From a virus: a DNA stretch of 64,000 bases. Shown here piece after piece: positions 40,140-40,415 of the stretch. How positions within the stretch are numbered: the first letter of the stretch is position 1; the number at the start of each line of letters is the position of its first letter. The stretch spans positions 13,946 through 77,945 of IMG/VR virus record IMGVR_UViG_3300045988_119557. The stretch is one strand, 5' to 3'. The notes under the pieces are model-generated. The model was not told where the DNA came from. It searched no databases and saw nothing but the letters and a program-made list of their open reading frames with translations. The translations under genes and the position numbers were made by a program.

Positions 40140-40415
40140 ATGAAGAAAGTTAGCTTAATAATTAAAGGAAATCTCATTGCTAAATCATTGATTAACAGAG
40201 AGAGAGAGAGAGAGAGAGAGAGAGAATATAAAAATAATTTAGATGGCCAAACAAAAAGTGAACTATTTTGCGGTTGTTCTAAAGAATTTTTAGATAGCTT
40301 CGACACGAACGATGCCATTATAATAGAAGGTGACTTAAAGATACAAACCTTCTGTTATAGTGGCATCGTTTTAGTTACAGGTGGAATCTGTTGTAATGCG
40401 GAGGAGGTGCTATGA
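40140..40415 (+). CDS. small protein, first gene of cassette 2, containing the (AG)14 tract
   Basis: 91 aa with IIKGNLIAKS and IIIEGDLKIQ motifs. RERERERERE is encoded by the repeat. ATGA overlap with the next gene. Confidence 0.5.
   Translation: MKKVSLIIKGNLIAKSLINREREREREREYKNNLDGQTKSELFCGCSKEFLDSFDTNDAIIIEGDLKIQTFCYSGIVLVTGGICCNAEEVL
40197..40224 (+). repeat. perfect dinucleotide microsatellite (AG)14
   Basis: Counted directly: 14 consecutive AG units, flanked by C (40196) and AA (40225-40226). Confidence 0.95.

What the first reader, a model, noticed from the sequence alone, without database searches (positions are those of the whole stretch)
40197..40224. (AG)14 microsatellite inside a tail-fibre-module gene: candidate phase-variable switch for a receptor-binding cassette
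A perfect 28-nt dinucleotide repeat lies inside the 91-aa ORF 40140-40415, where it reads RERERERERE. Nothing comparable occurs elsewhere in this AT-rich window. Gain or loss of one unit changes the frame, and both alternative frames meet stops within about 20 nt of the tract (ATA TAA; ..ATT TAG). The stop of the small ORF overlaps the ATG of the 385-aa putative receptor-binding gene (ATGA at 40412-40415). Truncation would therefore probably also uncouple translation of that gene. The paralogous cassette just upstream (38680-40136) lacks the repeat. This is the classic architecture of a slipped-strand contingency locus, which is well known in bacteria but rarely reported for phage host-range genes.
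Basis: partly seen in the sequence, partly recalled or inferred. Interest (0 to 1): 0.7.

Follow-up and report, generated by a model that had tools for sequence, protein, structure and literature searches.

The report
Repeat-driven on/off switch in phage fibre cassette
A 28-base AG repeat in a small gene just ahead of a likely host-binding gene of a gut Bacteroidales phage changes length between near-identical phages, switching the small gene on or off, and related phages, including crAss-like ones, carry a G-run at the same spot.

Summary
A perfect (AG)14 lies at 40197-40224, inside a 91-aa ORF whose stop overlaps the ATG of a 385-aa fibre-module gene. It is the only such repeat in the window.

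Comparative data support the switch reading. Twelve independent contigs of this lineage carry tracts of 16-36 nt: 8 in frame and 4 out of frame. Two of them have no substitution over about 6.5 kb and differ only by one AG unit. The protein database holds in-frame alleles with 1-5 RE units and truncated out-of-frame products.

The small ORF belongs to a conserved family. Its members have an N-terminal KGNLI motif, a variable linker and a C-terminal IIEGDL domain, and each precedes a fibre-type gene with a shared N-terminal domain. At the same linker position, at least five other lineages carry a poly-G run of 6-12, again in both frames. These include crAss-like cr112_1 and cr106_1. Half of the distant family representatives read GGG there.

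The gated cassette directly follows an ungated paralogue in 14 of the 16 arrays checked; a motif search found none in the other two.

Not shown: switching within one population, the role of the small protein, any effect on the 385-aa gene, and receptor binding.

The closest precedent is the poly-G tracts of Campylobacter phages. I found no report for Bacteroidales or crAss-like phages.

The parts
40197..40224 (+). Perfect (AG)14 tract. With the degenerate 15th unit AA at 40225-40226 it spans 30 nt and is in frame (ON).
   Evidence: Length varies from 16 to 36 nt in 12 related contigs.
40140..40415 (+). 91-aa small gate ORF. Residues 1-19 form the N-terminal MKKVSLIIKGNLIAKSLIN motif. The RE linker is encoded by the repeat. 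The C-terminal domain AIIIEGDLKIQTFCYSGIVLVTG is residues 59-81, nt 40314-40382.
   Evidence: It is a conserved family, with G10, A59, I61, I62, G64 and G81 invariant across lineages of 30-74% identity.
40229..40242 (+). Stops met in the two OFF frames: TAA at 40229-40231 and TAG at 40240-40242.
   Evidence: Matching truncated 29-31-aa products occur in the protein collection.
40400..40407 (+). Shine-Dalgarno-like GGAGGAGG, 4 nt upstream of the ATG of the 385-aa gene and inside the end of the small ORF.
   Evidence: Only 4 of 70 genes in the window have such a motif. GGAGG is kept at the nucleotide level in all repeat-bearing lineages although the encoded residues differ.
40412..41569 (+). 385-aa gated fibre-type gene (candidate receptor-binding or adhesin protein). 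It has a conserved N-terminal anchor-like domain of about 120 aa and a variable C-terminal beta-sandwich part.
   Evidence: It is 84.7% identical to a protein of crAss-like cr112_1.
38680..38907 (+). Small ORF of the ungated upstream cassette (75 aa as listed; the real start is probably the ATG at 38689). It has one IKGNLIVEG motif and no repeat.
   Evidence: An indel between the two ATGs in L002 and L037 points to the second ATG.
38904..40136 (+). 410-aa ungated paralogue with the same N-terminal domain.
30484..38610 (+). 2708-aa tail-fibre protein directly upstream. It is highly mosaic among relatives.
42721..42744 (+). Strong terminator-like hairpin (10 pairs plus a T-run) that closes the plus-strand gene block.

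Best explanation
The (AG)n tract is a hypermutable simple-sequence repeat, that is, a contingency locus, in the linker of a small ORF that heads an accessory fibre (candidate receptor-binding) cassette.

Proposed mechanism. Slipped-strand mispairing during phage DNA replication adds or removes AG units. Only tract lengths divisible by 3 give the full 83-93-aa protein. Any other length ends translation 6-18 nt after the tract and leaves a peptide of 25-35 aa.

The small protein is made from the same transcript as the downstream fibre-type protein, with overlapping stop and start codons. I infer that it is that protein's partner, either an adaptor or shaft piece or an assembly factor. The OFF state would then give virions that lack a functional second fibre protein, either because the partner is missing or because translational coupling is lost. 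The ungated upstream paralogue would still be made.

A phage population would therefore be a mixture of particles with and without the second binding specificity. This would be bet-hedging against Bacteroidales hosts, whose surface structures themselves vary in phase.

Shown here: the tract is real, it is held at the DNA level, and it is hypervariable among near-identical genomes in both frames. The small ORF is a conserved coding gene, and homologues carry a different repeat at the same site.

Inferred: a high reversible switching rate within a population, the role of the small protein, the effect on the 385-aa protein, and receptor binding.
For: 1. Tract polymorphism. Twelve independent contigs with the same 57-nt lead carry tracts of 16, 18, 24 (three contigs), 26, 28, 30 (two), 32 and 36 (two) nt. 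Eight are ON and four OFF.

2. The tract varies against a near-constant background. L004 and L036 show 0 substitutions over about 6.5 kb, and their contigs are 78480 and 78482 bp long; they differ only by (AG)8 versus (AG)9. In about 4.3 kb of cassette sequence from 7 close relatives, the tract is the only indel in coding DNA.

3. The protein collection holds 66 close in-frame alleles with 1, 2, 3, 4 or 5 RE units (1, 8, 23, 32 and 2 alleles). Lineages 55-69% identical also have RE tracts of variable length. Truncated OFF products ending RERER..V* sit on contigs of up to 83 kb.

4. The constraint is at the DNA level. The tract uses the minor GAG codon throughout (P about 1e-4).

5. The site is shared and the repeat type differs. 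Homologous small ORFs carry poly-G at the same linker position. In cr112_1 it is G9 (OFF), against G10 (ON) in L005 and L019. L006 has G11 and L010 G9, both OFF. L013 has G9 (ON) and L015 G10 (OFF). L066, L063, L074 and L100 have G6, G12, G10 and G11. L021-L024 have G7-G9. A Muribaculaceae-associated contig has G8. cr106_1 has two gated cassettes, G10 (OFF) and G7 (ON).

6. Overall tally: 20 ON and 12 OFF. This is more ON than the one-third expected by chance (P = 0.0007), so ON is favoured but OFF is tolerated.

7. Of 18 two-motif small ORFs found ahead of fibre-type genes, 17 have a repeat between the motifs. Of 48 distant family representatives, 24 read GGG or longer in the linker.

8. Architecture. 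In 14 of the 16 gated arrays scanned, the gated cassette directly follows an ungated gene with the same N-terminal domain; a motif search found no such gene upstream in the other two (L010, L019). The same small ORF and tract head a different downstream gene in L031 and L038.

9. A single-run Logan contig that encodes the identical 385-aa protein ends exactly inside the tract. This is compatible with mixed tract lengths in that sample.
Against: No read-level data were available. High-frequency reversible switching within one population is therefore inferred from differences between assemblies. Poly-G lengths in assemblies can also carry errors.

The 385-aa gene has its own Shine-Dalgarno-like motif, and no RNA structure hides its start (z = +0.5). 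Its translation may therefore not depend on the small ORF.

The function of the small protein is unknown. Pfam, PHROGs and the PDB give nothing. The AlphaFold2 model has a mean pLDDT of 52.

Receptor binding by the 385-aa protein is not shown. Foldseek gives only generic Ig/FN3-like matches with low TM-scores, so it could be a decoration or adhesion fibre instead.

Most recorded alleles are in frame and differ by whole RE units, so linker-length tuning may contribute.
Confidence: 0.7

Rival explanations
1. The tract mainly tunes the length of a flexible (RE)n linker between the two halves of the small protein. Out-of-frame alleles are then only transient, mildly harmful by-products and not a used OFF state.
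For: In-frame alleles with 1-6 RE units are abundant. ON is over-represented relative to chance. The linker is the least conserved part of the family.
Against: OFF is the assembled consensus in 12 of 32 independent contigs across lineages. Truncated products lie on near-complete genomes. A protein linker needs neither a perfect DNA repeat nor the rare GAG and GGG codons. Poly-G lineages change by single bases, which nearly always breaks the frame.
Confidence: 0.13
2. OFF alleles are not truly off. RNA polymerase or ribosome slippage on the long AG or G run restores the frame in part of the products, so the repeat sets a dose and is not a binary switch.
For: Long homopolymer and dinucleotide runs are known slippage sites (established knowledge, not tested here). 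OFF genomes persist as dominant variants.
Against: No alternative-frame extension is conserved; both other frames stop within 6-18 nt. Nothing here measures RNA or protein.
Confidence: 0.07
3. The tract is a neutral microsatellite in a short, non-functional ORF, and the 385-aa gene is expressed independently. The variation then has no phenotypic consequence.
For: The 385-aa gene has its own Shine-Dalgarno-like motif. No domain or structure could be assigned to the small ORF.
Against: The small ORF is conserved as a protein family down to about 30% identity, with invariant residues in both motifs. ON is enriched (P = 0.0007). The repeat site is kept in more than six lineages with two different repeat types. 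The C-terminal half is invariant in nearly all of the 66 close alleles.
Confidence: 0.05
4. The length differences are assembly or sequencing artefacts.
For: Homopolymer G runs of 9-12 are error-prone, and one contig breaks at the tract.
Against: AG tracts range from 8 to 18 units across independent assemblies from IMG/VR, ENA and Logan. Alleles with internal interruptions recur. This range is far beyond stutter error.
Confidence: 0.02

Closest known systems
Hypermutable poly-G tracts in receptor-binding genes of Campylobacter Fletchervirus phages (Sorensen et al. 2021, Cell Rep 35:109214). The paper is cited in PMC12823448 and PMC10877375 but is not held in the library, so its content is given from my own knowledge.
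   Same: A phage-encoded simple-sequence repeat whose length changes shift the frame in a host-recognition module. This creates phenotypically mixed phage populations facing a host with phase-variable surface structures.
   Different: Here the repeat sits in a separate small ORF upstream of the fibre-type gene, not in that gene itself. In this window it is a dinucleotide repeat (AG), not a homopolymer. The hosts are gut Bacteroidales. I found no sign that the proteins are related. No experiment exists for this system.
Bacterial contingency loci: slipped-strand phase variation in Haemophilus, Neisseria and Campylobacter (for example PMC3315296, PMC6321876).
   Same: A perfect repeat, with a unit length not divisible by 3, lies near the 5' part of an ORF. 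Lengths are polymorphic among close relatives. Both ON and OFF states occur. Rare codons maintain the repeat.
   Different: The locus is carried by a virus, and its replication machinery and mismatch-repair context are unknown. The gated product is a small partner protein, not a surface enzyme or adhesin. AG dinucleotide repeats inside coding sequence are an unusual repeat type.
Contingency loci in T-even and other phages (Gomez, Barrick and Waters, bioRxiv 2025, PMC12633550).
   Same: Polymerase slippage at repeats in phage genes, proposed as bet-hedging.
   Different: Those are short A or T homopolymers of 6 or more bases scattered over all gene classes, with measured frequencies around 1e-4 to 1e-3. 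Here one long, conserved, family-specific tract sits at a fixed position of one gene family tied to fibre cassettes.
Other phage host-range switches: Mu G-segment and P1 C-segment inversion, and diversity-generating retroelements in Bacteroides and crAss-like phages (PMC12386605).
   Same: They give the same outcome: stochastic diversification of the host-recognition apparatus within a phage population.
   Different: The mechanism here is different. I saw no invertase, inverted repeats, reverse transcriptase or template/variable repeat pair in the cassette, though I ran no dedicated search of the whole window for these.

Membership tests
Simple-sequence-repeat contingency locus (slipped-strand phase variation) | A perfect repeat, long enough to be unstable, lies inside an ORF or its promoter. 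| tested here: met
   (AG)14 at 40197-40224, inside ORF 40140-40415.
Simple-sequence-repeat contingency locus (slipped-strand phase variation) | Unit length is not a multiple of 3, so gain or loss of a unit shifts the frame and truncates the product. | tested here: met
   The unit is 2 nt. Both other frames stop at 40229-40231 or 40240-40242.
Simple-sequence-repeat contingency locus (slipped-strand phase variation) | Tract length is polymorphic among otherwise near-identical genomes, with both ON and OFF states. | tested here: met
   Eight different lengths in 12 contigs, 8 ON and 4 OFF. L004 and L036 are identical apart from one unit. OFF products are in the protein collection.
Simple-sequence-repeat contingency locus (slipped-strand phase variation) | The repeat is maintained at the DNA level, not by the needs of the protein. 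| tested here: met
   The minor GAG codon is used throughout (P about 1e-4). Homologues have poly-G built from the rare GGG codon at the same site.
Simple-sequence-repeat contingency locus (slipped-strand phase variation) | High-frequency, reversible switching occurs within a clonal population. | not testable with these tools
   No reads were available. The only hints are a single-run contig that ends inside the tract and the identical-flank pair L004 and L036.
Simple-sequence-repeat contingency locus (slipped-strand phase variation) | ON and OFF states differ in phenotype. | not testable with these tools
   This needs virion proteomics and host-range assays.
Campylobacter-phage type poly-G switch in receptor-binding genes | The repeat lies inside the receptor-binding gene itself, and the proteins are related to Fletchervirus receptor-binding proteins. 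| tested here: not met
   The repeat is in a separate 91-aa ORF upstream. tblastn of the 385-aa protein against the phage collection returned only gut-metagenome (crAss-like) phages and phages isolated on Bacteroides or Parabacteroides, and no Campylobacter phage.
Programmed frameshift or slippage site yielding two products | A conserved extended reading frame follows the slippery site in the alternative frame. | tested here: not met
   Both alternative frames end within 6-18 nt in all AG-lineage alleles.
Tail-fibre or receptor-binding protein (for the 385-aa gene) | It lies in a tail-fibre module, has a conserved N-terminal anchor with an exchangeable C-terminal part, and shows a recognised binding fold or demonstrated receptor binding. 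| tested here: inconclusive
   It lies next to a 2708-aa protein that hits PHROG tail and tail-fibre families and T4 gp37. The N-terminal 120 aa or so are shared by 366 loci in IMG/VR with varied C-termini. The AlphaFold2 model (pLDDT 64.6, pTM 0.68) gives only generic Ig/FN3-like matches. There are no Pfam, PHROG or PDB sequence hits.
Bactofilin-like beta-solenoid (for the small protein) | A significant match to Pfam PF04519. | tested here: not met
   The small protein has no Pfam hit. The only link is that one bactofilin, P0188, weakly matches the family profile (E 5e-5; PF04519 at 1.6e-13).

The most novel reading that the evidence does not exclude
The AG tract may be one instance of a widespread, portable 'repeat-gated partner ORF' in phages of gut Bacteroidales, including crAss-like Steigviridae. 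In this reading, a conserved small protein carries a hypermutable tract at one fixed linker position. The tract is usually poly-G, is often preceded by a DNA hairpin, and is AG here. It stochastically switches an accessory fibre or receptor-binding cassette that follows a constitutive one; cr106_1 has two such switches in tandem. This would be a phage-side contingency system that mirrors the phase-variable capsules and surface proteins of Bacteroides. It would help explain the long-term coexistence of these phages with their hosts.
Probability: 0.45. Interest if true: 0.85.

Novelty: new variant of a known kind. Interest (0 to 1): 0.72.

Why it matters
Gut Bacteroidales escape phages by phase-varying capsules and surface proteins (Porter et al. 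2020 and Shkoporov et al. 2021, as cited in PMC12823448 and PMC12386605). How their very abundant phages, crAss-like phages included, keep up is an open question. So far only diversity-generating retroelements have been described on the phage side (PMC12386605).

A conserved repeat switch ahead of accessory fibre genes would be a second, simpler counter-strategy. It is directly testable: tract lengths can be counted in existing metagenomic reads and followed over time or across hosts.

There is also a practical point for annotation. The OFF state caused the small ORF to be missed and the downstream gene to be mis-started in the GenBank record of cr112_1. In cr106_1 it produced a 32-aa 'gene'.

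Tried and rejected
- Pfam and PHROG scans of the six cassette and neighbouring proteins gave nothing useful.
- A PDB sequence search with the 385-aa protein found nothing.
- The AlphaFold2 model of the small protein was too poor to search with (mean pLDDT 52; only residues 50-85 reach about 70-75).
- Foldseek searches with the 385-aa model returned only generic two-domain Ig/FN3-like matches with TM-scores of 0.14-0.21, apart from its own cr112_1 homologue. They do not establish a receptor-binding fold.
- RNA folding around the start of the 385-aa gene showed no structure that would enforce translational coupling (z = +0.5).
- I first took the window for a crAss-like phage because of the cr112_1 match. 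I rejected this: the large terminase is only 29.5% identical to its best hit, a Parabacteroides phage, and the window has a tape-measure-like gene, an SPP1-type portal and an HK97-like capsid protein. Only the fibre cassette is shared with crAss-like phages.
- From memory I suspected a peptidase S74 chaperone at the C-terminus of the 2708-aa fibre (motif TSSDEQLKN). Pfam did not confirm it, so I do not claim it.
- A second Shine-Dalgarno-bearing gene, at 8237-8725 on the minus strand, turned out not to be a cassette.
- The scan of bacterial genomes with the alignment failed. The single-protein scan gave only distant hits, all in Bacteroidales MAGs.
- The abundant 92-aa repeat-free lineage (P0114) has no match in the phage collection.
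- The Sorensen 2021 paper is not held in the library.
- The sigma-70 promoter scan found no more sites than expected by chance, and Bacteroidales promoters are not covered by it.

Full report
OBSERVATION

The window holds one dinucleotide microsatellite, (AG)14.5 at 40197-40225, with 100% matches (sequence). A 12-nt AG probe hits 9 times, all inside the tract, against 0.01 expected from shuffles. The window is 35% G+C. It has no other dinucleotide run of 6 or more units, and no G or C run longer than 7.

The tract is in frame in ORF 40140-40415 (91 aa) and reads RERERERERE. Relatives read AG where the window reads AA at 40225-40226. The window allele therefore equals a 15-unit, 30-nt, in-frame tract with a degenerate last unit.

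Loss or gain of one unit leads to TAA at 40229-40231 or TAG at 40240-40242. The stop of the ORF overlaps the ATG of the 385-aa ORF 40412-41569 (ATGA).

GAG makes up only 25.5% of Glu codons in this genome. A peptide RERERERER encoded purely by AGA and GAG has a probability of about 1e-4. The repeat is therefore a property of the DNA, not of the protein.

CONTEXT

The window is not crAss-like at its backbone. It has the following genes:
- a large terminase at 23094-25775, whose best hit is 29.5% identity to a Parabacteroides phage;
- an SPP1-type portal at 26385-27902;
- an HK97-like capsid protein, and an 1871-aa tape-measure-like protein.

Related contigs are 78-82 kb long.

The 2708-aa ORF 30484-38610 hits PHROG tail and tail-fibre families and a short piece of the T4 gp37 tip. 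After it come two cassettes, each a small ORF followed by a large ORF: 75 aa plus 410 aa, then 91 aa plus 385 aa. Two more ORFs follow, and then a strong terminator-like hairpin at 42721-42744.

The two large proteins share only their first 130 residues or so (31% identity, E 9e-11). That N-terminal domain (M-x-x-S-N-G-x-I-x-A-P-V ... D-F-D-G-Y-x-H) occurs in 366 IMG/VR loci with many different C-termini. It also occurs in isolated Bacteroides and Parabacteroides phages and in Bacteroidales MAGs. This is the pattern expected of a conserved anchor with an exchangeable distal part.

The 385-aa protein is 84.7% identical to a protein of the crAss-like phage cr112_1, so the cassette moves between unrelated phage backbones.

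Its AlphaFold2 model (pLDDT 64.6, pTM 0.68) shows beta-sandwich domains with only generic Ig/FN3-like neighbours. 'Receptor-binding' remains an inference.

COMPARATIVE TEST OF THE TRACT

Homologues of the 385-aa gene and exact-flank DNA searches in IMG/VR and in metagenome contigs gave 12 independent contigs of this lineage. All have the same 57 nt between the ATG and the tract. Tract lengths are as follows:

| Tract (nt) | Contigs | Frame |
|---|---|---|
| 16 | 1 | OFF |
| 18 | 1 | ON |
| 24 | 3 | ON |
| 26 | 1 | OFF |
| 28 | 1 | OFF |
| 30 | 2 | ON |
| 32 | 1 | OFF |
| 36, with an internal AA | 2 | ON |

That is 8 ON and 4 OFF.

L004 and L036 have no substitution over about 6.5 kb, and their contigs are 78480 and 78482 bp long. 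They differ only by (AG)8 versus (AG)9, that is, OFF versus ON. In the roughly 4.3 kb that span the two cassettes and the downstream region, the tract is the only indel in coding sequence among seven close relatives. The few other indels lie in intergenic A or T runs.

A single-run Logan contig that encodes the identical 385-aa protein ends exactly inside the tract. A mixture of lengths would do this to a k-mer assembler, but the evidence is weak.

The protein collection holds 66 close in-frame alleles with 1, 2, 3, 4 or 5 RE units (1, 8, 23, 32 and 2 alleles). The window's allele is among the longest. Several alleles have interrupted tracts, such as RERERKRE, RDRDRERE and RQIERERE. Truncated OFF products MKKVSLIIKGNLIAKSLINRERER..RV* lie on contigs of up to 83 kb. 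Lineages only 55-69% identical still carry RE tracts of varying length, so the repeat is old and has been maintained.

THE SAME SITE CARRIES A DIFFERENT REPEAT ELSEWHERE

In cr112_1 the homologous small ORF (MKKVDLLVKGNIIAHILGGG...) has G9 at the position of the AG tract and is out of frame. The GenBank record therefore lacks the small ORF and starts the downstream gene too early. Close relatives have G10 and are in frame, and another has G9.

Further lineages show the same pattern:

| Locus | G-run | State |
|---|---|---|
| L006 | G11 | OFF |
| L010 | G9 | OFF |
| L013, L061, L062, L099 | G9 | ON |
| L066 | G6 | ON |
| L063 | G12 | ON |
| L015, L074 | G10 | OFF |
| L100 | G11 | OFF |
| L021 | G8 | ON |
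| L024 | G9 | ON |
| L023 | interrupted | ON |
| L022 | G7 | OFF |
| Muribaculaceae MAG contig (L124) | G8 | ON |

cr106_1, another crAss-like phage, has two gated cassettes in tandem. One has G10 and is OFF; it is annotated as a 32-aa CDS. The other has G7 and is ON. The first of these small ORFs begins MEKVSVIIKGNLIAKGYI, almost the same as the window's. Poly-G and AG tracts therefore replace each other between close relatives.

Over all lineages the tally is 20 ON and 12 OFF. This is more ON than the one-third expected for random lengths (P = 0.0007), yet OFF is common as the assembled consensus.

An alignment of the lineages shows a real protein family. It has an N-terminal strand motif (L-x-x-K-G-N-L-I), an unconserved linker that holds the repeat, and a C-terminal domain (A-x-I-I-E-G-D-L ... 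G-x-V-x-V-x-G) with invariant residues.

Of 80 surveyed loci, 18 have this two-motif small ORF ahead of the fibre-type gene, and 17 of those have a repeat between the motifs. A profile search of 1.84 billion representative proteins found 50 family clusters. Of the 48 outside the AG lineage, 24 read GGG or longer in the linker. An abundant 92-aa lineage has a longer, non-repetitive linker instead.

ARCHITECTURE

In 14 of the 16 gated arrays scanned, the gated cassette directly follows an ungated gene with the same N-terminal domain. The motif search found no such gene upstream in L010 and L019. The same 385-aa-type gene also occurs behind a different, repeat-free small ORF (L007 and L008). The same AG-bearing small ORF heads a different large gene in L031 and L038. 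The small ORF thus behaves as a portable head of a cassette.

Small and large ORFs always overlap or abut. A GGAGG motif lies 4-8 nt before the large gene's ATG in all repeat-bearing lineages, although the encoded residues differ. Only 4 of 70 genes in the window have such a motif. No RNA structure hides the start codon.

MECHANISM

Shown:
- The tract is hypervariable, is maintained at the DNA level, and toggles the reading frame of a conserved small gene.
- An unrelated repeat occupies the same site in homologues.
- OFF genomes are common.

Inferred:
- Slipped-strand mispairing during replication creates the changes at high, reversible rates.
- The small protein is a partner of the downstream fibre-type protein, as adaptor, shaft piece or assembly factor.
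- The OFF state removes a functional second fibre protein, through loss of the partner, loss of coupled translation, or both, while the constitutive upstream paralogue is still made.
- The population thereby hedges its bets against phase-variable Bacteroidales surfaces.

I put about 0.7 on the contingency-switch reading as a whole, and less, about 0.45, on the specific claim that the 385-aa protein is lost from OFF virions.

COMPARISON WITH WHAT IS KNOWN

The closest precedent is the poly-G tracts in receptor-binding genes of Campylobacter phages (Sorensen et al. 2021, cited in PMC12823448 and PMC10877375; the paper is not held in the library, so its content is from my own knowledge). A 2025 preprint reports many short homopolymer contingency loci in T-even and other phages (PMC12633550).

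Full-text searches that combined Crassvirales or crAss with repeat and phase-variation terms found nothing equivalent. For crAss-like phages only diversity-generating retroelements and host-side phase variation are described (PMC12386605). The structural atlas of crAss001 leaves the additional fibre proteins unresolved (PMC10172136).

The present case differs in four ways. The repeat lies in a dedicated small upstream ORF. The repeat type here is a dinucleotide. The site is conserved across a protein family with two interchangeable repeat types. The hosts are gut Bacteroidales. I class it as a new variant of a known kind.

LIMITS

- No reads were available, so there is no direct measure of heterogeneity or rate.
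- Poly-G lengths in assemblies can be wrong.
- The function of both cassette proteins is unassigned.
- The model of the small protein is poor.

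Noticed in passing
window 11756-29657, compared with 38680-41569: The backbone is a novel Bacteroidales phage unrelated to crAss-like phages: the large terminase is 29.5% identical to that of a Parabacteroides phage, and there is an SPP1-type portal, a tape-measure-like 1871-aa ORF and an HK97-like capsid protein. 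Yet the 385-aa cassette gene is 84.7% identical to one in crAss-like cr112_1. Fibre cassettes are therefore exchanged between phage groups.
   Followed up: partly
L125 (cr106_1, MT774378) 1422-2746 and 2761-4161; L001 (cr112_1, MT774388) 5689-7065: cr106_1 has two repeat-gated cassettes in tandem (G10 OFF, G7 ON). In both GenBank records the OFF state distorted the annotation: a 32-aa CDS in cr106_1, and in cr112_1 a missing small ORF with the downstream gene started too far upstream.
   Followed up: yes
L021/L022 5140-5165; L006, L013 and L124, directly 5' of their poly-G runs: DNA hairpins lie immediately upstream of the poly-G tract in four of five poly-G lineages (z = -2.9 to -4.9 against shuffles). 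L021 and L022 differ by one compensatory change (CTGCTGC..GCAGCAG versus CTGTTGC..ACAACAG) that alters the encoded residues. The AG lineage has no such hairpin (z = +0.5). The hairpins might promote slippage.
   Followed up: partly
window 40400-40407, and the equivalent sites in L001, L006, L013 and L021: A Shine-Dalgarno-like GGAGG lies before the fibre-type gene's ATG. It is kept at the nucleotide level while the overlapping small-ORF residues differ. Such motifs are rare in this genome (4 of 70 genes), as expected for Bacteroidales phages.
   Followed up: partly
window 30484-38610: The 2708-aa tail-fibre gene is strongly mosaic among otherwise close relatives, with large block replacements and indels, whereas the cassettes downstream are nearly identical.
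   Followed up: no
window 38680-38691: The 75-aa ORF probably starts at the second ATG (38689). Relatives L002 and L037 have a frame-changing indel between the two ATGs.
   Followed up: partly
window 47835-49055 (minus strand): A 406-aa transposase (PHROG 506, E 2e-130) sits inside the phage genome.
   Followed up: no
window 63884-63997: A G+C-rich tandem repeat of 18- or 36-nt units (AATGCGCGGGTGTCCGAC, about 6 copies, about 80% matches) lies at the very end of the AT-rich window.
   Followed up: no
window 41600-41646: Seen by eye only: the non-coding stretch after the 385-aa gene (..AAGTCTGGATCTATTTTGTTTAGAGCAAAATAG) resembles the 3' end of the gene that precedes the small ORF in L006 and L010 (..GCTGGTTCTATATTGTTTAGAGCTAAATAA). 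It may be a recombination scar.
   Followed up: no
L010 5210-5219; L124 1316-1326; L012 5893-5902: Further long G or C runs occur in related loci. One is an intergenic G10 after a small hairpin downstream of the fibre-type gene. One is a C11 in the Muribaculaceae contig. One is a C10 that splits an IS1595-like transposase.
   Followed up: no
proteins P0068, P0207 and P0208 (relatives of window 40140-40415): Some database products start inside the small ORF in a way that implies second-site frame changes or alternative TTG starts near the tract. They would yield proteins with only the C-terminal half.
   Followed up: no
protein P0188, compared with the family profile A3: A 297-aa bactofilin (PF04519, E 1.6e-13) weakly matches the C-terminal motif of the small-ORF family three times (E 5e-5). 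This hints that the motif is a beta-solenoid-like rung.
   Followed up: partly
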